Shown here in pieces: positions 2,609 through 46,151 of a stretch of DNA of 46,166 bases. Positions within the stretch are counted from its first letter, which is position 1; each line of letters starts with the position of its first letter. A program made the translations under genes and the position numbers. The DNA is from a phage, in assembly GCA_017760785.1 (NCBI GenBank), contig GCA_017760785.1_4320.1; one strand, given 5' to 3'. A model generated the notes under the pieces. That model saw only the letters and a list, made by a program, of their open reading frames with translations. It ran no database searches and had not been told where the DNA came from.

Positions 2609-3024
2609 AAATTACAGATAAAGAAGATTACATTGAGTTTTACCCTGGGCCAGTAAAGTCTTGCCCGAAAGAGGATGAAGAACAAATCTTTTGCTCTGAT
2701 TGGGTTAAGTATAACTACCCAGATATGGTATTTTTCCACTGCGTGAATGAGGGAAAGAAAACCATTGGTCAAGCAAGAAAAGACCAGGCTAAGGGTCTTC
2801 TCAAGGGCGTATCAGACTGCGTATTTATGATTCCAGAGAAATACCGTGGCAACTACTCATTTGGAGCCATAGAGCTAAAGAGGGCTGGGAAAACACAGGC
2901 CATCCCAGTTAGTGATGAACAGAAGTCCTTCCTCAAAAGCGTAAGAGAATCAGGTGGCTTCGCCGCAGTGGCCTACGGGCGGGAGGGTTTTTTATCTGCG
3001 TTTAAAGAAATGATTTCAAAATAG
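2605..3024 (+). CDS. VRR-NUC-like PD-(D/E)xK nuclease
   Basis: ATGA overlap with helicase stop; D...ELK motif; 139 aa. Confidence 0.55.
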   Translation: MKITDKEDYIEFYPGPVKSCPKEDEEQIFCSDWVKYNYPDMVFFHCVNEGKKTIGQARKDQAKGLLKGVSDCVFMIPEKYRGNYSFGAIELKRAGKTQAIPVSDEQKSFLKSVRESGGFAAVAYGREGFLSAFKEMISK

Positions 3025-3064
3025 CACTAATTGCTAAAGACGTTTCGGTGAGTTGGTGTATTAT
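3022..3064 (+). promoter_or_regulatory. motif-type promoter (TAGCACTAATTGCTA, 22 bp, TATTAT)
   Basis: palindrome plus spaced -10; CATCGAAACGA leader follows. Confidence 0.55.
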
Positions 3065-3102
3065 CTATTCATCGAAACGAAACGCACAAAGAGAGAAAGA
3101 AA

Positions 3103-3297
3103 ATGGCTACTATCTTTACTGGTAAAATCTACGAATCACGCAAAACTGGTTATGAATATGAATTAGCAATCACCGCTGAGGGTTATGTTCTTGACGATGG
3201 TGAAGGTTATGCATTCGAAGTTAGCCCAACATACAAAGACGACCTGGAAACTGTTAAAAACGCATATGGTGAAAAATTTGATGAGGTATCGGAATAA
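3103..3297 (+). CDS. hypothetical small protein
   Basis: ORF preceded by TAGCAC motif promoter and purine-rich SD. Confidence 0.5.
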   Translation: MATIFTGKIYESRKTGYEYELAITAEGYVLDDGEGYAFEVSPTYKDDLETVKNAYGEKFDEVSE

Positions 3298-6506: not shown

Positions 6507-7063
6507 AAATGACTAAATTATTTATACTTAATGGCCCAGCTGGAGTTGGTAAGGACACTATAGCGGATATCATGGTTGAGACCGGTGTAGCCAAAGAAAA
6601 GGTATCATTCAAGTCACCAATGTTTAACGTTGCAAAAGGAATGCTATCAAGCGATGAATTTGATGGATTCATCAAGAATTACGACAATAGAGACTATAAG
6701 GAATCACCTCATGGATTTCTTGTCGGTATGACAGTTCGTGAATTTATGATTTGGATTAGCGAGTCTGTAATGAAGCCAGTCTTTGGTGATGATGTTTTCG
6801 GTAAAAGGCTAGCCCAGTCACTTGGTGATGGTTGCTACATTTGCGCTGACGGTGGATTTGCTAGCGAGATTAAGCCACTGATCGACTCTGGTGTTGAGGT
6901 CACGTTAATCAGATTGCATAGGTCAGAGTACACATTTGATGGCGATAGTCGCTCATACATTCACGGTGTGTGCGCAAGAGAAATTGATGTTCGTGTTATT
7001 AGTGGTGATATTGATGGAACATCAGCATTGGTAAGGCACGTAATAAATAGCACTAATTGCTAA
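6503..7063 (+). CDS. P-loop nucleotide/polynucleotide kinase-like protein
   Basis: Walker A GPAGVGKDT; ATGA overlap with phosphatase stop. Confidence 0.55.
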   Translation: MKMTKLFILNGPAGVGKDTIADIMVETGVAKEKVSFKSPMFNVAKGMLSSDEFDGFIKNYDNRDYKESPHGFLVGMTVREFMIWISESVMKPVFGDDVFGKRLAQSLGDGCYICADGGFASEIKPLIDSGVEVTLIRLHRSEYTFDGDSRSYIHGVCAREIDVRVISGDIDGTSALVRHVINSTNC

Positions 7064-8127: not shown

Positions 8128-8492
8128 TAATGTGCGTAGCTTTGTCTGGATGCTCAGCAACATCCGCACTGACCGGATTAATTGGCAGTAAGCCAGAGGT
8201 TAGCGCCCAGGCTGGCGCCGAGAACAATAAGGTTGGTGTTGGGTTAACGAACAAGTTTGACTCCAGCAACTCCAGTGAAGCCACGGTTAAAGATTCTAAG
8301 GTTGGGTCACTGGATAGCTCGAGCGGAAAAAAGACTGCTGACAACTCGATTAAGGCCTCAAGAATCACTGCCGAAAAGATTGAAATTACCAATAACGAAT
8401 CATCCGCGCTTCCGTGGGTTGGAACGGGAGCTATGGGGTTGCTGGTTTTAATTCTCATGGCATTAATCTTAAGACGTAAAAAAGCCTCCTAA
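8103..8492 (+). CDS. unimolecular spanin-like lipoprotein
   Basis: N-terminal lipobox LSGC plus C-terminal TMD and basic tail; overlaps endolysin end. Confidence 0.6.
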   Translation: MFKRIAALVMCVALSGCSATSALTGLIGSKPEVSAQAGAENNKVGVGLTNKFDSSNSSEATVKDSKVGSLDSSSGKKTADNSIKASRITAEKIEITNNESSALPWVGTGAMGLLVLILMALILRRKKAS

Positions 8493-8510
8493 TGGAGGCT
8501 ATATTTTTAG
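8480..8510. terminator. bidirectional terminator between spanin and minus-strand block
   Basis: AGCCTCC-TAAT-GGAGGCT with A-run before and T-run after. Confidence 0.65.
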
Positions 8511-8842
8511 CTAAATAACTCGTCGTCAGTCATTCCTCCTATATTCATCATCTCTTTTATGTACTTGCTTTGATACCCGTTAAGTGACTCAAAGCTAAAC
8601 TCAAATGGCCTCTTCAAGCTCCCCTTGCTAACAAACTCGCCGCACTTACCATCAATATATCCTGCAGTAAGCATCTTCGCGCAAAACTCCTTTGATGCAG
8701 CGCTGCAAAACTCTCTATGCGATAACCCTGCAGCTTTGCTGAATCTCTGAGAATCCTTGTGTTGGTAGATGAATCGCGCCAAATGCTGGCGCCTAAAGTA
8801 ACTAAAACTTTCACAGAACTTAAATATATCGAGCAGGAACAT
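8507..8842 (-). CDS. hypothetical protein
   Basis: 111-aa ORF downstream of ATPase gene on same strand. Confidence 0.45.
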   Translation of the reverse strand: MFLLDIFKFCESFSYFRRQHLARFIYQHKDSQRFSKAAGLSHREFCSAASKEFCAKMLTAGYIDGKCGEFVSKGSLKRPFEFSFESLNGYQSKYIKEMMNIGGMTDDELFS

Positions 8843-8845
8843 TCG

Positions 8846-10429
8846 TCACCCCAGCAATCGTGGATTAATGTAAACCTTATCACCAATCAGGCACGTATAG
8901 TTTTTCTCATCAAGCATTGGCAGTAAGTGATCTTTAATCTTCGTCATTACTCCAGCTTGGGCCTCGAATGGCTTAACTTTACGAGCAGCTTCATATAATG
9001 AACGAATGCCAACTACTCCCTTCCCATTTTTTCCTTGCTTGATCAGAATATCAATCAGCTTATTCATCTCGGCATTGTCTCCAGCGTGACCGGCGGCGTT
9101 AGCGGATGACAAATAAGTCTTACTCAGTTCCTGGAACATAATTACAGCTTCTTGCATGGTGTCGAGCTCAATCTCTCTGGATTTCTGTGGGCTCCCACCG
9201 TTATGGTTGAACCAGTTACGAACAGTATGAAGTACCGCCGCAATCCTGATGGCCTGCTTATCGAACTTACCCAGAGCGCCGCGCAACATTGTGTGTGAAT
9301 ACTTACCTCCGTCAGCAAGGTGCGGTTCCATTTCCTGGCGTGCTCTGTTGAGGTATTTCATTGCTGAGCTGCTGACTGTCAACTTTACTTCTTGCTCATT
9401 CATTATCTCATGAACTAATCGGAAGTAATCAGCCTTCAGCCCTCCGTCGATAGGCTCGTAAGTTGAATCTCCATTCTCGTCAACGAATACACGCTCGCCC
9501 AGGAATGACTTTTCACGTACAAGCAGGAAACGTTCCGATACACCGATACCTCGCGCACCAGCATTCATGATCGCATTGATTGTCTCATCCTGCGCAATTA
9601 CAGATATACAGCCCATGGCAACGAAACTCATGTTGTTTTCAGCGTTGGCGCGCGCGATAGATACGTTACCCGCATCCCATGCCTTGAGCACGAGCTCGCT
9701 GTTGGTCTTCTTCGAGCCGTCACCGTAAGTCATTCCCAATAGTGAGTTGACGCTCGTTGCCTCATCCGAGATAACCGCAAAGTTGCCCTGGCGGTTGTTT
9801 ATTCGCGCAAGACCTTCAGGTGTGGTATCTGACACTGGAAATACGATATCGCAAAGTTTCTCTAGCTTTTCCTCAAGTTCCTCTTTCTCCTCGAATAGGG
9901 AGGCCATCTCTGACGGAGATTTTTCCTGCTTCATCTCTTTGGATAATGCAGATAGCTTAGCCATAATCTTTTTTCGCTCACGCTTTCGCACTTCATTCAG
10001 CCGCTCAGTCTCGGCAATCATTGGAGCAATGGAGAGTGAGTTAATTGCTGATTTACCAGTCGATGGTGGCTGACTGGTCACGACGTACAAAGAGGTTGGC
10101 TGCTGGGTCCCGTGATACTCAACAGTAAAGCGGCCCAGCATTGCAGCGGAAACACACCCCAGGAAGTGCATGTATGCGGATGACTCAGGAAACTGAACTG
10201 AACGAGCAATGTTGGCTGACAGTTTTCCAACAACATCAATATCATTGCCGAGTGAGATTACAGGATATTTGTCATTTGCAGCATCAATCTCTACTGGCGC
10301 TTTCCAGAATGATTGAGACTGACGATAGCCATTAGCATTAATAGCGACGCGCAAAGGTGGGAGGTTGTCTGCGGAAGCGATTGCCATAACCTGTTCAATA
10401 GATAGTTTATCTTCGTTGAAATCGAACAT
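8846..10429 (-). CDS. P-loop NTPase, DUF3987-like (assignment uncertain)
   Basis: Walker A-like PPSTGKS; GGAGA SD before ATG 10429; own motif promoter; 527 aa. Confidence 0.6.
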   Translation of the reverse strand: MFDFNEDKLSIEQVMAIASADNLPPLRVAINANGYRQSQSFWKAPVEIDAANDKYPVISLGNDIDVVGKLSANIARSVQFPESSAYMHFLGCVSAAMLGRFTVEYHGTQQPTSLYVVTSQPPSTGKSAINSLSIAPMIAETERLNEVRKRERKKIMAKLSALSKEMKQEKSPSEMASLFEEKEELEEKLEKLCDIVFPVSDTTPEGLARINNRQGNFAVISDEATSVNSLLGMTYGDGSKKTNSELVLKAWDAGNVSIARANAENNMSFVAMGCISVIAQDETINAIMNAGARGIGVSERFLLVREKSFLGERVFVDENGDSTYEPIDGGLKADYFRLVHEIMNEQEVKLTVSSSAMKYLNRARQEMEPHLADGGKYSHTMLRGALGKFDKQAIRIAAVLHTVRNWFNHNGGSPQKSREIELDTMQEAVIMFQELSKTYLSSANAAGHAGDNAEMNKLIDILIKQGKNGKGVVGIRSLYEAARKVKPFEAQAGVMTKIKDHLLPMLDEKNYTCLIGDKVYINPRLLG

Positions 10430-10459
10430 TACTTCTCTCCGTATTGTTTCTGAGCGGCC

Positions 10460-10502
10460 ATTATATCAACGACCGCTTATAATACATTATCAATTTGTGC
10501 TA
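10460..10502 (-). promoter_or_regulatory. motif-type promoter (TAGCACAAATTGATAA, 21 bp, TATAAT)
   Basis: minus strand; drives 8846-10429 ATPase gene. Confidence 0.5.
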
Positions 10503-10503
10503 T

Positions 10504-10857
10504 TTACAGGTATTGCGCTTCGAAATGGTACGTATGGCAAAGAGTGTAGAAACCAACATCATCGCTACGGTATAGCTGCCAGGCATTTCCATCCTCATCG
10601 TAAATGTAGCCGGCAGACTGACCAAGCCCCGCATGAAGATTTACTTGGTAACGCTTATTCTCTTTAAAGTCTTTTTTAACTCCTGACTTGTGGTTAACTT
10701 TAGTGCAATAAAGCGTCTTGGTCTTGATATATTTACCACGCTCTTCCAGGCTAACCCATTTGCCATCTTTCTTGATTTGCTCTACACCATCTTTAACGCG
10801 AGCTTTGCATAGTACGTTTTCGTTGCTAATGAAGTTTTTAGTCAGTGTAGTAGTCAT
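10504..10857 (-). CDS. hypothetical protein
   Basis: ORF; first ATG at 10857 (track start is GTG). Confidence 0.45.
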   Translation of the reverse strand: MTTTLTKNFISNENVLCKARVKDGVEQIKKDGKWVSLEERGKYIKTKTLYCTKVNHKSGVKKDFKENKRYQVNLHAGLGQSAGYIYDEDGNAWQLYRSDDVGFYTLCHTYHFEAQYL

Positions 10858-11018
10858 TTTGTTACTCTCTTCGTTGTCCACATGAATTTGTTTGGTACTG
10901 ATTTGCGCACGATGCACACCACAATCTTATCAACCTTCTGAACTAAACCGTAAATCTTTCCGTCTAGCGACGCCCTGAAAACCGTCCACTCCATTTCGTT
11001 GTGAAAGTTATCGAACAT
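10854..11018 (-). CDS. hypothetical 54-aa protein
   Basis: hand-translated ORF directly after motif promoter; stop overlaps next start. Confidence 0.3.
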   Translation of the reverse strand: MFDNFHNEMEWTVFRASLDGKIYGLVQKVDKIVVCIVRKSVPNKFMWTTKRVTK

Positions 11019-11050
11019 GCTTGCTTACTCTCTTTCGTTTCGATGAGGTA

Positions 11051-11093
11051 ACTATACAACAAAAGCACCGAAGGGCTTTAGCAATTAGTGCTA
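11051..11093 (-). promoter_or_regulatory. motif-type promoter (TAGCACTAATTGCTAA, 21 bp, TATAGT)
   Basis: minus strand; CATCGAAACGA leader follows. Confidence 0.55.
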
Positions 11094-11471
11094 TACGCCA
11101 TAATCTATCTTAACCAGTTTCCCTTTGTAGTATCCAAAGTTCTTTGGAAAAGCGTCGTACTCAAAGAAATCACGGTCAAGCGTTCTATATTCATCATTAT
11201 CAACGTCATCATATAGCTTTTGCAGGTCGGATTTAAAAAGCTCCTCATTATCAACTGGCTCAGCCTTATGCATCACAACCATTAGGCCGAACCTGTTTGA
11301 GTATGCTATTGGGCACAGGTTCTTGTTATCAACCCCCTTCCATTGGCCCTCAGTCATGTTGCTGAGCATCCCCTGCACAAAGGCCTTCCAGGAATTAAAT
11401 CTCGGGAACTTAATCGCATACTTTTTTGTGATTAGTACAAGCCTGGTCCCACCACTTCTATTTAGTTTCAT
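11091..11471 (-). CDS. hypothetical protein
   Basis: 126-aa ORF with AAGGA SD; stop lies in TAGCAC motif. Confidence 0.5.
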   Translation of the reverse strand: MKLNRSGGTRLVLITKKYAIKFPRFNSWKAFVQGMLSNMTEGQWKGVDNKNLCPIAYSNRFGLMVVMHKAEPVDNEELFKSDLQKLYDDVDNDEYRTLDRDFFEYDAFPKNFGYYKGKLVKIDYGV

Positions 11472-11616
11472 TCCTTGCCTTCTCTATCGCCTTCAGCATA
11501 ATCTCGTGAGACTCAAGCAAGTCTTCGCGGAACCAGTCACCGCATGGCCAGCCTTTTCCGCTGTAGGCGCTTACTACCTCAAGGTCGAAGTAATTTATCT
11601 CAGATGGTAGTAGCAT
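11458..11616 (-). CDS. hypothetical 52-aa protein
   Basis: hand-translated ORF filling a gap between minus-strand genes. Confidence 0.3.
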   Translation of the reverse strand: MLLPSEINYFDLEVVSAYSGKGWPCGDWFREDLLESHEIMLKAIEKARNETK

Positions 11617-11619
11617 CTT

Positions 11620-11811
11620 TTACGCCTCCATAATGTATTCAAACTCGGATGTAAACAATGGAAGATCCCTTCCGGCAGGAGTCTTGATACTAACCTCGCC
11701 CGACTCATACTGGTGAATAACTTCGTAAACTCCCCCGATCTCCACCCCGTAGAATTCTCTCTCGTATTTACCGTGTTTTGTTTGAAAGTTGATTAATTTA
11801 ATCTTCATCAT
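11620..11811 (-). CDS. small protein, paralogue of 12227-12421
   Basis: shares YG-x3-GGVYEV-x3-YE core with 12227-12421 product. Confidence 0.45.
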   Translation of the reverse strand: MMKIKLINFQTKHGKYEREFYGVEIGGVYEVIHQYESGEVSIKTPAGRDLPLFTSEFEYIMEA

Positions 11812-12047
11812 TTCACCTCATCAAAAGTTGCTATTCCAGGAATAAACATACCAACCTTCCAGCCAGTAATGGCAATCCAACCAGAATCGTGCTTGTGCGG
11901 TCGCTCAGCGCCATTAATCAACCATTCGTTAGGGATTACCTTCCCCTTAATGATTAGCGGCTCAGCGTCGTATACAGAGCCTTTAACGAATGGTGTTAAG
12001 GCTTTCTTGTCAGTGCTGGTAATGCAGTTAGTGCAGCGAATTTTCAT
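11808..12047 (-). CDS. hypothetical small protein
   Basis: ORF; overlap with neighbouring gene. Confidence 0.45.
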   Translation of the reverse strand: MKIRCTNCITSTDKKALTPFVKGSVYDAEPLIIKGKVIPNEWLINGAERPHKHDSGWIAITGWKVGMFIPGIATFDEVK

Positions 12048-12057
12048 ATCTCAATCC

Positions 12058-12237
12058 TCAAATAAATGGTAGGCACTCTTCGCACCCAAGCCCATCACAG
12101 CACAGGAATTCATTCCCTGACTGGAATTTCTTAGCCAGGTCAATATCCAATTTTCCGCGCAACACAAGGTCAGTGTAATCTTCATTAAGCCCAATCAGTG
12201 TGCACTCGCGACGTAATTCATCTTTATCAATCTTCAT
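12058..12237 (-). CDS. hypothetical Cys-rich small protein
   Basis: C-terminal CCDGLGCEEC; start at internal ATG with GAGG SD. Confidence 0.4.
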   Translation of the reverse strand: MKIDKDELRRECTLIGLNEDYTDLVLRGKLDIDLAKKFQSGNEFLCCDGLGCEECLPFI

Positions 12238-12421
12238 AGATTTCAACCTCTCTATTGTAGAGCATAACATTACGGCCATACTTGTTAACCACTACAATTG
12301 CCTCAAGTTCAGCATAAGTAGTTACCACTTCATACACGCCGCCTTGATTGATGCCATAGTACTCATACACTTCATCATAAATATCACCACAGAAATCAAG
12401 CTCAATAACCTTTACTTTCAT
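12227..12421 (-). CDS. small protein, paralogue of 11620-11811
   Basis: first gene after minus-strand motif promoter at 12449-12492. Confidence 0.5.
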   Translation of the reverse strand: MKVKVIELDFCGDIYDEVYEYYGINQGGVYEVVTTYAELEAIVVVNKYGRNVMLYNREVEIYED

Positions 12422-12448
12422 ATCTATGTCCTCGTTGCTGATGAGCTA

Positions 12449-12492
12449 ACTATAGCGTCACCACATTAACATGTCTTTAGCAAAAAGTGCCA
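12449..12492 (-). promoter_or_regulatory. variant motif promoter (TGGCACTTTTTGCTAA, TATAGT)
   Basis: minus strand; drives 12227-12421. Confidence 0.5.
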
Positions 12493-12720
12493 TTCGTTAG
12501 ATTTATGGATTGTTGCAGATATTGAAATGATTAACATGATTATTGCACATATAGTAATATTGCTTCCGATGCAATGATTTTTTTGATTGTTGCGAAAAGT
12601 GAAATAAAGTGGTGAGTGAGTGAATGAAAGATGGATGGACTACCATACAAGTTGATTTTGATTCTGTCCGAGCCGCTTTGCGTATACGCGTTATGAAAGT
12701 TATGCCGTGTAGATAAACCT

Positions 12721-13020
12721 TTCCGCGGAAATTCATCCACGCCGTACCACGCCAGGTTACGCCATAGTTACACTATAATATCTATATATAACAACCTCTT
12801 AGTATTATTATTATTATTATAAATATTACTATGTATATCATGTAACCAATATGCCGGAGGGGGTCGATAGTTTTTTCTATGAAAATGACAATTTCTATAT
12901 ATATAAGGATAGGTGTATACCCTCCGCGTTTTCCGCGGAAATTCATCTACAGGCAAATTACACGAGCTATAGCTGGGCTGGCACGCCAAAAAACGTAACC
13001 AGCGCCAATATAAACACAAG
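12721..13020. repeat. AT-rich divergent control element, copy 1
   Basis: 17-bp direct repeat TTCCGCGGAAATTCATC at 12721 and 12931; (TAT)6 at 12803-12820; ~70 percent identical to 39790-40110. Confidence 0.7.
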
Positions 13021-13096
13021 ATAACACTTGATAACGTGTAGACGTGTGTTATTATGGGTTCACCTTAACGAATGGGAACCAATCAGGAGTAATAAA

Positions 13097-13615
13097 ATGT
13101 CAGAACATAAAGAAGCAGTAAGTCTCGGTGAAGTGGTTCGCTACATGGCTAAGCAAGCACTCAAATCCCCTACAAAATCTTACACCGTCCCGCTGCGTAT
13201 GATTGCTCGACAGGTGTACGGGCTTAGCAAGGAGGAATTTAGCAAGATTTATGAAGAAGATCTTAAGCCTGGCGGTAAGTACAACCTCAATAAGCTAAAG
13301 GCTTCATACGTTTCAAACACAGTAAGCCGAATGCCTGAAATTAAAGCGGCCAATGTTCGCTCAAAGTTTTCTATACATGATGTGGAGATTAATTTTGATG
13401 ATGTTCGTTGTGCGGTAATCTCACTTGTCCCAGGGGCTATAAATGGTGGGTCACGAAGCAAGGCTAAAGAAGAAAAGGAAGCAGCAACCATTGAGAAGTT
13501 CAAGAAACGACTACTGGCAGTCACTCCGAGTGTTATCCACCTGAGCGGGGAAAAGCTCGATGGCGCACTTTTAGCACTGTCCGCTTACCAGGAACTTATC
13601 AAGGAGGCAAAATAA
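13097..13615 (+). CDS. hypothetical protein
   Basis: ATG at 13097 with AGGAGT SD (track start 13028 is TTG). Confidence 0.5.
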   Translation: MSEHKEAVSLGEVVRYMAKQALKSPTKSYTVPLRMIARQVYGLSKEEFSKIYEEDLKPGGKYNLNKLKASYVSNTVSRMPEIKAANVRSKFSIHDVEINFDDVRCAVISLVPGAINGGSRSKAKEEKEAATIEKFKKRLLAVTPSVIHLSGEKLDGALLALSAYQELIKEAK

Positions 13616-13947
13616 TGGGGATGTTTGATTTCAATGATGGGAAGCTAAATGATAATGATATTGCAAGCATTGCGCAGCGAGATGGTTACACAATTCTTCG
13701 CGTAGCAATCAGCAACAACGGCTATCGGCAATCTCAGAAGTTCTGGGGCCAACCTAACGCTTCATCAATCTACGATGGTGACGTGCTATGTATTGTTGTC
13801 AACCGAATAAGAAAAATGGCAGCCGGAGCAAAAGGAGTGATTGAACTCCGTTCTTTGTATAACGATATTCGAAAGATTAAAAGGTTTAATGGTGGAAACG
13901 CTAGATTAATAGCACGACTTAGAGAGGAGATTATCCCGCAACTTTAG
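13615..13947 (+). CDS. internally deleted paralogue of the 8846-10429 ATPase, ended by in-frame TAG at 13945
   Basis: N-terminal ~45 aa and C-terminal ~60 aa align to the 527-aa protein; AAGGAGG SD. Confidence 0.5.
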   Translation: MGMFDFNDGKLNDNDIASIAQRDGYTILRVAISNNGYRQSQKFWGQPNASSIYDGDVLCIVVNRIRKMAAGAKGVIELRSLYNDIRKIKRFNGGNARLIARLREEIIPQL

Positions 13948-14145
13948 AAGATGAAACTCGCTTGCCTCGTTAGGGATAATGTTTATGTCAACCCGGCAAT
14001 CCTGGAGGAAGATTGGGAACCTAACTTCAAAGCCTACGAAGGTGAGCATCCTAGTAGACTACCATACCACTTAATGTACAGTGAGGACTAGGTGGGGATG
14101 GCGATTGAGCTCTACCGGAAAGCTAAATCAATCCTTAGCGGTGAA

Positions 14146-44730: not shown

Positions 44731-44752
44731 TAAAAAACCTCCCTAGGGAGGT
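44731..44752 (-). terminator. minus-strand terminator after primase gene
   Basis: CCTCCC/GGGAGG palindrome with A-run on plus strand. Confidence 0.55.
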
Positions 44753-45675
44753 TAGTTTAGCAAGTCTTTGGCTTTGTACACTTTCTTGCGTATTCCTGTT
44801 TTAAATGACTTCCCGTCATTAGGTATCACCACATCAACATTGCGATCATCAGCGGCAATAAGTATATCAGTATCACAATAACGGCAAGCAACCCTAAACT
44901 TCCTAGACTTGTCTCTGTGCATAACCATTTCCATATTGTAACAGGAGAAAGCCACAAACACCTCGCGACCGCCAGTAGCCAGATGAATACGTACGCCATC
45001 AATAAAATTATCAACAACATAAGTGTAACCATCAACCTGCCTAGAGCCAATGACAGCAACAGAATCACGAGTGTAATCACCAGCAAGGAACTTAACATTT
45101 GAATCTCCATCAATAAACATTAAGTTGCAGAAATCATCACCAAGCCCATCCTCGTAAACCATCGAGCACGGTACGGCATGAATCATTGAGCCATCCTTAG
45201 CTATGCCAACATCGAATCCATCATCAAGATAAATACCCTCGTATGTTGTGAGTGGGCTTGATTCAACTCTCTCGGTACGCTGCATGACCTCAAGCACTTT
45301 TTCATGATCTACCTGGGCGCCCATTTTGTAACGCTGAGTTCTTGATGCCTGCTTGTTTGCCTTAACTATAACCTCAATTGGTGTTAAGTTCAGCCAGTCA
45401 CCAAGCAAATTTACTGAATCGGCGAAGGACAATCCAGTGCACTTCATGACCCATCCTATACCGGAGTCACTTCCGCATTTCGAACAAACTGCCGCGCCAT
45501 TTCCTTTTTCACTGCCTATTTCGTCGGTAAACCTGAATCTGTCAGTGCCAAAGCAGTATGGGCATGGTCCGTGCTTCTTACTTAGGTGTCTATCATTCCA
45601 ACCAAGTTCCTTTGCATAAAATGATTTCCACAATCCGGCCATCTTAGGTATAACTTCATTCTTATCGTAATTCAT
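44752..45675 (-). CDS. DNA primase-like protein with zinc-binding motif
   Basis: CPYC...CSKC zinc-ribbon-like motif followed by acidic core; 307 aa. Confidence 0.55.
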   Translation of the reverse strand: MNYDKNEVIPKMAGLWKSFYAKELGWNDRHLSKKHGPCPYCFGTDRFRFTDEIGSEKGNGAAVCSKCGSDSGIGWVMKCTGLSFADSVNLLGDWLNLTPIEVIVKANKQASRTQRYKMGAQVDHEKVLEVMQRTERVESSPLTTYEGIYLDDGFDVGIAKDGSMIHAVPCSMVYEDGLGDDFCNLMFIDGDSNVKFLAGDYTRDSVAVIGSRQVDGYTYVVDNFIDGVRIHLATGGREVFVAFSCYNMEMVMHRDKSRKFRVACRYCDTDILIAADDRNVDVVIPNDGKSFKTGIRKKVYKAKDLLN

Positions 45676-46151
45676 TTGCTTAACCCGTGATTTTCGTGAA
45701 AGTTGTATTTTCTCTCTGCTTCAATTCTTACTTTATACGCCTGCTCTGGAGTATCGAAGTTCCCAAGGTGTAGCTGCTTACCGTCAACCTTGATGTGAGC
45801 CTTAAATTTTCCGTGATTTAGCTTTGTCACTCCACAATAACCAGTTGTTGATAAAACGCTAAGCTTGCAATTTCTTGAGTTACCTTGATTTGTTGTTACT
45901 CTTAGGTTTTCTATTCTGTTATCTAATTTGTTATGGTTTATATGATCAATGTAGTCGCCATTTTGAAGTTCTCCATTAAACATCTCCCACACAACTCTAT
46001 GTACATAAGTCCTAAAGCCATTAACAGACACTTTGTAATAGCCAGATGTAGATAGTGAGTTGCACTCATCGCCAACCTTAACACGTCTTGCAGTGCTAAT
46101 CTTCCAATGCAATTTGCCATCTACATAGTAAAAATAATCATGCCAGTTCAT
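45672..46151 (-). CDS. HNH homing endonuclease with AP2-like domain
   Basis: third paralogue (YWKI, HINH, GYCGV motifs); overlaps primase start. Confidence 0.7.
   Translation of the reverse strand: MNWHDYFYYVDGKLHWKISTARRVKVGDECNSLSTSGYYKVSVNGFRTYVHRVVWEMFNGELQNGDYIDHINHNKLDNRIENLRVTTNQGNSRNCKLSVLSTTGYCGVTKLNHGKFKAHIKVDGKQLHLGNFDTPEQAYKVRIEAERKYNFHENHGLSK

What the first reader, a model, noticed from the sequence alone, without database searches (positions are those of the whole stretch)
8507..12492. Leftward accessory block with a 527-aa P-loop ATPase and small genes
A block of about nine minus-strand genes (12421 down to 8507) is transcribed opposite to the surrounding early genes from three motif promoters (12449-12492, 11051-11093, 10460-10502) and ends at a bidirectional terminator (8480-8510). 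Its largest gene (8846-10429) has a Walker A-like PPSTGKS and resembles the DUF3987 family in overall layout; that family name is from memory, not a search. The phage already has a helicase (614-2608) and a primase (44752-45675), so this ATPase is additional. The other products are short, including a Cys-rich peptide (12058-12237), with no recognisable domains. Such blocks are where phages commonly keep host-takeover or anti-defence functions.
Basis: inference. Interest (0 to 1): 0.55.

Follow-up and report, generated by a model that had tools for sequence, protein, structure and literature searches.

The report
T1-type early operon with replicative helicase
The block is the conserved leftward early operon of T1/Rtp-like coliphages: its large ATPase is the family's core MCM-like (DUF3987) helicase, not an accessory gene, while the small genes upstream are the variable part and include a homologue of a known defence trigger and a 126-residue kinase-like protein.

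Summary
Ten minus-strand ORFs (8507-12421) sit behind three copies of a genome-wide promoter motif and end at a bidirectional hairpin terminator (8483-8500). The 527-aa protein is Pfam DUF3987 (E 1.6e-41).

The ATPase is not accessory.
- It is full length in 907 phage records, across all Drexlerviridae subfamilies tested.
- It keeps the same position, followed by the 111-aa gene and convergent with the lysis cassette.
- In more distant phages it lies next to the primase.
- The phage's other helicase is SF2, and no DnaB-like helicase or polymerase was found, so this is the likely fork helicase.

The upstream genes are variable. The 117-aa gene is homologous to the SECphi27 128-aa protein that triggers Mokosh type I; that gene can be lost by frameshift. 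The 126-aa ORF, absent from all ten comparison loci searched, is predicted to have a minimal protein-kinase-like fold with invariant Lys, Glu and Asp. It is 84-86% identical to copies in T4-like phages. Overall an ordinary block with one interesting accessory gene.

The parts
12449..12492 (-). Promoter motif copy 1 (GCACTTTTTGCTAAAG ... TATAGT), upstream of the first small gene
   Evidence: also found by the sigma-70 scan as AAGACA-17-TATAGT
12227..12421 (-). 64-aa ORF, phrog_14327; paralogue of the 63-aa ORF (35% identity); sporadic among relatives
12058..12237 (-). 59-aa Cys-rich ORF (rtp74-like, phrog_9053); found in Braunvirinae relatives only
11808..12047 (-). 79-aa ORF (rtp73-like, phrog_4448); function unknown
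11620..11811 (-). 63-aa ORF, phrog_14327; sporadic among relatives
11458..11616 (-). 52-aa ORF (rtp72-like, phrog_4548)
11091..11471 (-). 126-aa minimal protein-kinase-like protein (phrog_4301). It sits in a variable slot, and its TAG stop codon is the TAG of the next promoter's TAGCAC element
11051..11093 (-). Promoter motif copy 2
10854..11018 (-). 54-aa ORF (rtp70-like, phrog_5407)
10504..10857 (-). 117-aa protein (T1 gp07 / rtp69-like, phrog_2684), homologous to the SECphi27 128-aa trigger of Mokosh type I
   Evidence: BLASTP 40% identity, E 4e-22
10460..10502 (-). Promoter motif copy 3, directly upstream of the helicase gene
   Evidence: the same site is present in Rtp
8846..10429 (-). 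527-aa DUF3987 / MCM-like AAA+ helicase (T1 gp09 / rtp67 orthologue)
8507..8842 (-). 111-aa protein (T1 gp10 / rtp66-like, phrog_2794). It starts 3 nt after the helicase stop codon and follows the helicase gene in every Drexlerviridae genome examined; function unknown
   Evidence: no Pfam or PDB match
8483..8500 (.). Bidirectional intrinsic terminator shared with the convergent lysis cassette
   Evidence: T1 annotates a terminator at the equivalent position
44752..45675 (-). Stand-alone zinc-ribbon DNA primase, the presumed functional partner of the helicase (outside the block)
   Evidence: lies next to the DUF3987 gene in Vi II-E1 and pIS4-A

Best explanation
The window is a complete Rtp-like Drexlerviridae genome. 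The block is this family's conserved leftward early operon, the counterpart of T1 genes ST1-ST10 and Rtp rtp66-75.

Three copies of the family-wide promoter drive transcription towards one bidirectional terminator shared with the lysis cassette.

The promoter-proximal genes are a changeable set of small early genes. The promoter-distal trio is family-wide: the 117-aa gp07-like gene, the 527-aa gene and the 111-aa gp10-like gene.

The 527-aa protein is an MCM-like AAA+ (DUF3987, 'SF6') helicase. It has an N-terminal helical domain, a coiled-coil hairpin after the Walker A helix, and a C-terminal winged helix.

Inferred steps, not shown here:
- It assembles as a ring at the phage origin or on recombination intermediates.
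- It unwinds the fork using ATP.
- It works with the stand-alone zinc-ribbon primase and the phage SSB, while host Pol III copies the DNA. No phage polymerase or DnaB-like helicase was found.

The 117-aa protein is a dispensable early protein that some hosts sense through Mokosh type I. The 126-aa protein is a horizontally acquired accessory nucleotide-binding, kinase-like protein, probably used in host takeover or counter-defence.
For: Identity of the window and synteny:
-.

Family assignment:
- Pfam DUF3987, 143 bits.
- phrog_2373 'DNA helicase'.

Motifs invariant across 27 homologues at 35-89% identity:
- Walker A G125-K126-S127.
- Walker B E223.
- S-E-R300-F, resembling the MCM SRFD arginine-finger motif.
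- R383.

Structure:
- pLDDT 88.9, pTM 0.86.

Conservation:
- 925 phage records, 907 of them full length, covering T1 (57%), Webervirus (66%) and Tlsvirus (73%).
- The host-genus counts are similar to those for the primase.

Link to the primase:
- In Vi II-E1 and pIS4-A the gene lies beside the primase and the SF2 helicase.

Replication inventory:
- Among the ORFs scanned, mainly those of 100 aa or more outside the structural and packaging region, the only other helicase is SF2 with a VRR-NUC partner. There is an SSB, Erf and an exonuclease, but no polymerase and no DnaB-like protein.

Literature:
- DUF3987 proteins are predicted replicative SF6 helicases, and N4 dns is essential for replication (PMC4889955).
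- A PriCT-DUF3987 protein is a 5'-3' helicase that binds its primase-polymerase (PMC11724360).

Mokosh link:
-.

Kinase-like protein:
-.
Against: - No biochemical or genetic data exist for any Drexlerviridae DUF3987 protein. None was found in the literature held here.
- In this phage the helicase gene is about 11 kb from the primase gene.
- The primase is mosaic: it is 63% identical in phages whose helicase is 98% identical. That argues against tightly co-evolved contacts between the two.
- No iterons were found next to the gene, so the site of loading is unknown.
- 'Early' timing is inferred from position and promoter type only.
- The kinase-like protein lacks the whole C-lobe after the DFG-equivalent. 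Its catalytic-loop positions vary across the family (D/E and N/S), so phosphotransfer is unproven.
Confidence: 0.78

Rival explanations
1. One reading: the whole block, including the ATPase, is an accessory host-takeover or anti-defence module that varies between phages, and the ATPase is surplus to replication.
For: - The distal small genes are variable.
- One conserved member is a defence trigger that can be lost by frameshift.
- A kinase-like accessory gene is present.
- A second helicase and a primase exist elsewhere in the genome.
Against: - The ATPase is full length in 907 phage records.
- It is syntenic in every Drexlerviridae genome examined.
- It is 57% identical to the T1 protein.
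- It lies next to the primase in distant relatives.
- The other helicase is SF2, not a ring helicase.
- There is no PADLOC hit.
Confidence: 0.05
2. The DUF3987 protein is mainly an initiator or remodeller. It would recognise the origin through its winged helix, melt DNA or load another helicase (host DnaB), or restart forks. It would not itself be the processive fork helicase.
For: - It has a C-terminal winged helix like those of ORC/Cdc6.
- A paralogue made of only the N-terminal and winged-helix domains exists at 13615-14091, which suggests these domains act on their own.
- The gene is separated from the primase gene.
Against: - The full set of AAA+ catalytic motifs is invariant.
- A family member unwinds forked DNA in vitro (PMC11724360).
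- The phage encodes its own primase and SSB, which is usual for phages that bring their own fork helicase.
- The initiator and fork-helicase roles do not exclude each other.
Confidence: 0.15
3. The 126-aa kinase-like protein is not an enzyme. It would be a nucleotide-binding pseudokinase or decoy, for example an ATP or signal-nucleotide binder or an inhibitor that mimics a kinase N-lobe.
For: - The protein ends 1-3 residues after the DFG-equivalent, so it has no activation segment or substrate-binding lobe.
- The catalytic-loop Asp is Glu in about half of 49 diverse members, and the Asn is Ser in about 40%.
- It has no Pfam kinase hit.
Against: - The Lys-Glu-Asp triad and the glycine loop are invariant across members at about 30% identity. 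Such conservation is typical of active sites.
Confidence: 0.4

Closest known systems
T1 gp09 (ST9) and Rtp rtp67, with the flanking T1 ST7/ST10 and rtp69/rtp66 genes
   Same: Orthologues: 57% (T1) and 96% (Rtp) identity over the full length. Gene order is the same, the block is convergent with the spanin-endolysin-holin genes in the same way, and a terminator sits at the same place.
   Different: T1 carries an HNH endonuclease (ST8) between ST7 and ST9, and its upstream small genes are unrelated. The window has the 126-aa insertion. RefSeq labels these proteins 'DNA helicase' by similarity only; no experiment was found.
AgaPH, a PriCT-DUF3987 helicase associated with a pAgo-linked primase-polymerase (PMC11724360)
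   Same: [quoted passage not shown] AgaPH forms an oligomer, unwinds 5'-overhang and forked DNA, and binds its primase.
   Different: AgaPH has an N-terminal PriCT domain and pairs with an adjacent AEP primase-polymerase. The phage protein has a different N-terminal helical domain, and its primase is a zinc-ribbon type encoded 11 kb away. Identity between the two was not measured here.
Archaeal and eukaryotic MCM helicases
   Different: Identity is only 11-19%. The MCM N-terminal OB-fold/zinc domain is absent. A roughly 55-residue coiled-coil hairpin follows the Walker A helix. The one DUF3987 helicase tested runs 5'-3', whereas MCM runs 3'-5'.
SECphi27 128-aa protein, the trigger of Mokosh type I (bioRxiv 10.1101/2022.08.27.505566)
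   Same: It is homologous to the window's 117-aa protein (40% identity, E 4e-22) and occupies the same position just upstream of the DUF3987 gene.
   Different: Whether the window's copy triggers Mokosh is untested. The biochemical function of either protein is unknown.
Small protein kinases: OspG, archaeal RNA kinases Ark1/ArkI, Bud32, Rio; and the phage T7 kinase gp0.7
   Same: The predicted fold matches the kinase N-lobe plus the catalytic and Mg-binding loops, with 95-113 residues aligned. A Lys-Glu-Asp triad is present.
   Different: At 126 aa it is far shorter than any of them and lacks everything after the DFG-equivalent. It shows no profile similarity to T7 gp0.7. No activity is known.

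Membership tests
Pfam DUF3987 (PF13148) | HMM score above the gathering threshold over most of the model | tested here: met
   143.2 bits against a cut-off of 27; residues 81-430 match model positions 3-349 of 364
AAA+ MCM-like (SF6) helicase | Walker A GK[ST], a Walker B acidic pair, and an arginine finger before strand beta-5 | tested here: met
   G125-K126-S127, D222-E223 (E223 invariant) and S298-E299-R300-F301 are invariant or nearly so in 27 homologues. Their placement relative to the strands is read from the model's secondary structure.
AAA+ MCM-like (SF6) helicase | AAA+ core that superposes best on MCM-clade structures | tested here: met
AAA+ MCM-like (SF6) helicase | Pre-sensor-1 beta-hairpin pore loop | tested here: inconclusive
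   The model has two short strands, 255-258 and 267-270, with invariant R260, just before the sensor-1 strand 273-279. The coordinates could not be inspected.
MCM family proper | N-terminal OB-fold/zinc domain and 3'-5' polarity | tested here: not met
   The N-terminal 100 residues are predicted to be all-helical, and only about 250 residues align to MCM. Polarity cannot be tested here. The protein is therefore filed as MCM-like, not as an MCM.
Replicative helicase of the phage | Conserved and syntenic across the virus family | tested here: met
   907 full-length records; synteny in T1, Rtp, JulesPiccard, 2725-N35, ACG-M12, LL5, KP1801, GaoY1-9D and SECphi27
Replicative helicase of the phage | Genetic linkage to the primase | tested here: inconclusive
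   The two genes are not adjacent in this window (about 11 kb apart) but are adjacent in Vi II-E1 and pIS4-A. The primase is mosaic relative to the helicase.
Replicative helicase of the phage | Ring assembly, unwinding activity, and essentiality for DNA synthesis | not testable with these tools
   Needs biochemistry and genetics
Protein-kinase-like superfamily (126-aa ORF) | Kinase-like fold | tested here: met
Protein-kinase-like superfamily (126-aa ORF) | Beta-3 Lys, alpha-C Glu and DFG Asp | tested here: met
   K21, E41 and D123 are invariant in 49 members at 29-50% identity
Protein-kinase-like superfamily (126-aa ORF) | Catalytic loop D-x4-N | tested here: inconclusive
   D106 and N111 are invariant among close homologues. 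Across the wider family the counts are D 26 / E 23 and N 29 / S 20.
Protein-kinase-like superfamily (126-aa ORF) | Activation segment and C-lobe helices; match to Pfam kinase models | tested here: not met
   The protein ends at IDYGV, as do nearly all of the best 150 relatives listed out of 1015 related clusters. No Pfam kinase hit.
Mokosh type I trigger family (117-aa ORF) | Homology and synteny with the SECphi27 128-aa protein | tested here: met
   40% identity, E 4e-22, end to end. Both genes lie directly upstream of the DUF3987 gene. The SECphi27 gene sequence is taken from the paper's supplement.
Mokosh type I trigger family (117-aa ORF) | Activates Mokosh type I | not testable with these tools
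   Needs a co-expression toxicity or plating assay
Sigma-70 promoter | -35 and -10 hexamers 16-18 nt apart; a mapped transcription start | tested here: inconclusive
   The -10 hexamers are good (TATAGT/TATAAT) and the motif is strongly enriched. The conserved TTGCTA lies about 22 nt upstream, leaving a weak -35 (one search scores 9 of 12). Transcription starts are not mapped.
Intrinsic terminator | G+C-rich hairpin followed by a T-run | tested here: met
   on both strands

The most novel reading that the evidence does not exclude
The 126-aa ORF (11091-11471) would represent a large, undescribed family of the smallest self-contained protein-kinase-like enzymes. Members are about 110-135 aa and end right after the DFG-equivalent. 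At least 1015 clusters at 50% identity belong to it. The gene moves horizontally among unrelated virulent phages: T4-like, N4-like, jumbo and T1-like. It would phosphorylate a host or defence component, or a nucleic acid or small molecule, early in infection.
Probability: 0.3. Interest if true: 0.65.

Novelty: new member of a known kind. Interest (0 to 1): 0.38.

Why it matters
For the finding as written, the result is a correction. The large P-loop protein of T1-like phages should be read as the phage's own MCM-like replicative helicase, not as a candidate anti-defence gene. This matters for annotation and for anyone deleting 'accessory' genes in Drexlerviridae.

Two by-products are more useful.

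1. The conserved small gene upstream of the helicase is the homologue of the only reported phage trigger of Mokosh type I. This places that trigger in a defined, family-wide operon next to the replication helicase.

2. A 126-residue kinase-like protein sits in a variable slot. Its family is large and absent from Pfam, and no paper describing it turned up in the searches made here. If it is active, it would set a new lower size limit for the kinase fold and add a second class of mobile phage kinases beside T7 gp0.7.

Tried and rejected
- Sequence search of the PDB with the helicase found nothing significant (best E 0.096). Fold comparison was needed instead.
- Pfam, NCBIfam and PADLOC scans of all ten block proteins gave no significant hit apart from DUF3987.
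- The 111-aa gp10-like protein had no hit as a profile against the PDB or with its members scanned singly against Pfam.
- I first took the 126-aa ORF for the T1 gp07 homologue. A local tblastn showed that the gp07/rtp69 homologue is the 137/117-aa ORF, and that the 126-aa ORF has no counterpart in the ten comparison loci.
- I tested whether the 126-aa family is related to T7 kinase gp0.7, because a 2026 paper lists phage G17 among T7K-like hits. hhalign gave no relation (probability 0.1).
- I asked whether a missing C-lobe is encoded by a neighbouring ORF, making a split kinase. The 267-aa Kc263 homologue has a C-terminal extension with no similarity to anything in the window or in the T4-like and GaoY1-9D loci. 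The idea was dropped.
- I looked for iterons or an origin near the helicase gene. Only short matches of chance quality turned up, apart from the promoter motif and a 21-nt direct repeat in the 12.4-13.1 kb intergenic region.
- The afdb50 fold library was not available.
- The T1 genome paper (PubMed id 14972552) is not held. The classical T1 gene 1 and gene 2 DNA-synthesis mutants could therefore not be mapped onto this gene.
- Weak DUF3440 hits to some 126-aa family members (best E 4.5e-4, 6 of 20 members) were treated as noise.

Full report
**What the window is.** The 4.2-kb region matches Rtp-like coliphages of Drexlerviridae, subfamily Braunvirinae (2725-N35, JulesPiccard, JeanPiccard, DTL, Rtp), at 86-88% nucleotide identity. 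The 46-kb window has the gene content of a complete phage genome of that type.

**Check of the observation.** Ten minus-strand ORFs run from 12421 down to 8507.
- PHROG alignments and ATGA overlaps favour internal starts for two of them: 10504-10857 (117 aa) and 12058-12237 (59 aa).
- Flanking genes are on the plus strand, and GC skew reverses over 9-13 kb.
- The three 'motif promoters' align with each other. The shared motif GCACWWWTTGMTAAWG occurs 15 times in the window, against 1.2 expected.
- Most copies, including the three in the block, are followed by a TATAGT/TATAAT-like hexamer and a CATCGAAAC-like stretch and face the adjacent genes.
- The same architecture is found in T1, KP1801, LL5 and Rtp. 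It is absent from the non-Drexlerviridae relatives Vi II-E1 and pIS4-A.
- The conserved part is a dyad, TAGCA-N5-TGCTA, whose TTGCTA half lies about 22 nt from the -10 hexamer. It is therefore not a textbook -35 element.
- The terminator is real in form: a 7-bp stem at 8483-8500 with T-runs on both strands, -14.1 and -12.5 kcal/mol, z about -3.4. T1 annotates a terminator at the equivalent spot.
- The 527-aa product has QPPSTGKS at residues 120-127 and matches Pfam DUF3987 (E 1.6e-41, 143 bits against a cut-off of 27).

**The ATPase: family and structure.** PHROGs places it in phrog_2373, 'DNA helicase' (E 4.5e-258). An alignment of 27 homologues down to 35% identity keeps four elements invariant:
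- the Walker A motif G125-K126-S127;
- the Walker B glutamate E223, in the motif VISDEA;
- an S-E-R300-F motif placed just before a strand, like the MCM SRFD arginine finger;
- R383 in the lid.

This agrees with the literature. DUF3987 proteins were classed as divergent SF6, MCM-related helicases with a C-terminal winged helix. They are often fused to or encoded beside primases, and were proposed to be phage replicative helicases; N4 dns, which is essential for replication, is a member (PMC4889955). A PriCT-DUF3987 protein has since been shown to be an oligomeric, ATP-dependent 5'-3' helicase that binds its primase-polymerase (PMC11724360).

**The ATPase: core or accessory?** A tblastn search finds it in 925 phage records, full length in 907.
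- These span Rtp-like phages (90-98%), Tlsvirus and others (about 71-73%), Webervirus (66%) and T1 and its relatives (57%).
- They also include non-Drexlerviridae relatives at 36-38%.
- The host-genus counts are close to those obtained with the primase.
- In every Drexlerviridae genome examined the local order is the same: small genes, the gp07-like gene, the helicase and the gp10-like gene, convergent on spanin, endolysin and holin.
- In Vi II-E1 and pIS4-A, which lack the intervening lysis genes, the gene lies directly beside the DNA primase and the SF2 helicase.
- Within the window, the 'helicase' at 614-2608 is an SF2 enzyme (Helicase_C, phrog_16) followed by a VRR-NUC nuclease. The primase is a stand-alone zinc-ribbon type.
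- There are an SSB, Erf, a RecE-like exonuclease and a repair exonuclease. No DNA polymerase and no DnaB-like helicase turned up among the ORFs scanned.

The DUF3987 protein is thus the only candidate ring helicase.

**The two conserved neighbours.**

The 111-aa gene starts 3 nt after the helicase stop codon. It has homologues after the helicase gene in T1 (52%), LL5 (50%), KP1801 (45%) and SECphi27 (60%). No family or structure match was found, so its role is unknown. A helicase cofactor is a guess based on linkage alone.

The 117-aa gene (rtp69 / T1 gp07-like) also occurs across the family. It is homologous end to end (40% identity, E 4e-22) to ORF 6629-7015 of phage SECphi27, which sits directly upstream of that phage's DUF3987 gene. 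The nucleotide sequence of that ORF is the one listed by Stokar-Avihail et al. as the 'protein of unknown function (128aa)'.
- Its expression is toxic only in cells carrying Mokosh type I.
- The escape mutant is a +T frameshift at codon 7.

The gene is therefore dispensable in the laboratory and is sensed, directly or indirectly, by a defence system.

**The variable part.**
- Four small genes (54, 52, 79 and 59 aa) are shared with Rtp, JulesPiccard, 2725-N35 and ACG-M12, but not with T1, LL5, KP1801 or SECphi27.
- The 63-aa and 64-aa genes are paralogues of each other and occur sporadically.
- The 126-aa ORF has no counterpart in any of the comparison loci (L001-L010) or in SECphi27. It occupies the slot where Rtp, JulesPiccard and 2725-N35 each have a small unrelated gene.
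- A 48-kb metagenomic relative carries it in the same slot, and GaoY1-9D carries a 70% identical copy elsewhere in the same operon.
- Its best matches among annotated phages are not Drexlerviridae. They are T4-like and other large phages at 84-86% identity, then N4-like, Felix O1-like and jumbo phages. This points to horizontal transfer.

**The 126-aa protein.** Close homologues keep G7-G8-T9-R10, K21 (AIKFP), D106-x4-N111 and I-D123-Y-G. This reads like a kinase glycine loop, VAIK lysine, catalytic loop and DFG motif.
- The AlphaFold2 model (pLDDT 86, pTM 0.77) has the matching secondary structure.
- Foldseek against viral models puts 'Protein kinase domain-containing protein [Ralstonia phage RP12]' first (E 1.2e-8).
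- A profile search of 1.84 billion representatives finds 1015 clusters at E of 1e-3 or better (406 at 1e-10). Nearly all of the best 150 listed are 110-135 aa and end at the profile end.
- Across 49 diverse members, G7, R10, V12, K21, G34, E41 and D123 are invariant. Position 106 is D or E, and position 111 is N or S.
- No Pfam model covers the family, and it is unrelated in profile to T7 gp0.7.
- A few jumbo-phage homologues carry an unrelated C-terminal extension and are annotated as Ser/Thr kinases.

I conclude that it is a minimal nucleotide-binding kinase-like module. Whether it transfers phosphate is open.

**How the block most likely works.**

Shown: the gene content, the conserved promoter motif, the terminator, the fold and family of the helicase, and the conservation pattern.

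Inferred:
- Host RNA polymerase transcribes the block leftward early in infection from the three promoters, with read-through to the shared terminator.
- The distal small proteins act on the host.
- The DUF3987 protein forms a ring helicase that opens phage DNA for the zinc-ribbon primase, the SSB and host Pol III, alongside the Erf/exonuclease recombination functions.

Points against, or open:
- The helicase and primase genes are 11 kb apart.
- The primase is mosaic: it is 63% identical in phages whose helicase is 98% identical.
- No iterons flank the gene.
- No experiment on a Drexlerviridae member was found.

The main rival for the helicase is an initiator or loader role that uses the winged helix. 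It does not exclude fork helicase activity.

**Novelty.** The block is an orthologue of a known, annotated operon, and the helicase is a new member of a known, partly characterised family. The link between T1 gp07-like genes and the Mokosh trigger follows from published data, but I did not find it stated. The minimal kinase-like family is the least expected element. I found no paper that describes it in the searches made.

Noticed in passing
window 13615-14091 (+): A paralogue of the helicase made only of its N-terminal domain (aa 1-45, 56% identity) and its C-terminal winged helix (aa 458-526, 33%), with no ATPase domain (phrog_7327). In the window an in-frame TAG at 13945-13947 splits it into 110-aa and 46-aa pieces. 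JulesPiccard (bas03_0065) and GaoY1-9D have an intact protein of about 180 aa. It could be a regulator, an origin binder or a decoy. The stop codon may be a real nonsense mutation or a sequencing error.
   Followed up: partly
window, at least 13 sites (e.g. 3022, 7048, 10502, 11093, 12492, 14878, 16531, 26658, 39003); also L001, L003, L005, L006, L009: The family-wide promoter carries a dyad, TAGCA-N5-TGCTA, centred roughly 42 nt upstream of the likely transcription start. Its TTGCTA half is about 22 nt from the -10 hexamer, and a conserved CATCGAAAC lies downstream. This looks more like the site of a dimeric factor, or an unusual RNA polymerase contact, than a plain -35. It is present in T1, Webervirus and Tlsvirus, and absent from the Vi II-E1 and pIS4-A loci.
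   Followed up: partly
window 12422-13096, repeats at 12720-12740 and 12930-12950: The AT-rich divergent intergenic region of about 670 bp corresponds to the genome ends in the Rtp and T1 records. It holds a 21-nt direct repeat, TTTCCGCGGAAATTCATC(C/T)AC, that contains a palindrome, with the two copies 210 nt apart. The repeat was not found in any of the relatives' loci fetched. It could be related to pac or the origin, or mark a small insertion.
   Followed up: partly
window 44752-45675 (-): The primase is mosaic. It is 91.5% identical to that of one phage (phiA2-1) but only about 63% identical to that of the vB_EcoS Rtp-like group, whose DUF3987 helicase is 98% identical to the window's. An HNH endonuclease gene (45672-46151) abuts it.
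   Followed up: no
window 11091-11093: The TAG stop codon of the 126-aa kinase-like gene is the TAG of the TAGCAC element of the next promoter. The acquired gene is therefore inserted flush against the promoter.
   Followed up: no
L012 (PaulHMueller, Bas45) 2501-2881: In T4-like phages the 126-aa kinase-like gene lies in the variable region between ipI and the tRNA gene cluster, about 0.9 kb upstream of the first tRNA. Archaeal RNA kinases (Ark1/ArkI) are among its structural neighbours. This is only a coincidence worth testing.
   Followed up: no
L004 (Vi II-E1) 2916-3171: Two annotated 25-nt repeats (GTGGGGCAACCAACCTGCCCCACGA) lie just upstream of the DUF3987 helicase gene of this distant relative. 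They are a possible origin. No equivalent was seen in the window.
   Followed up: no
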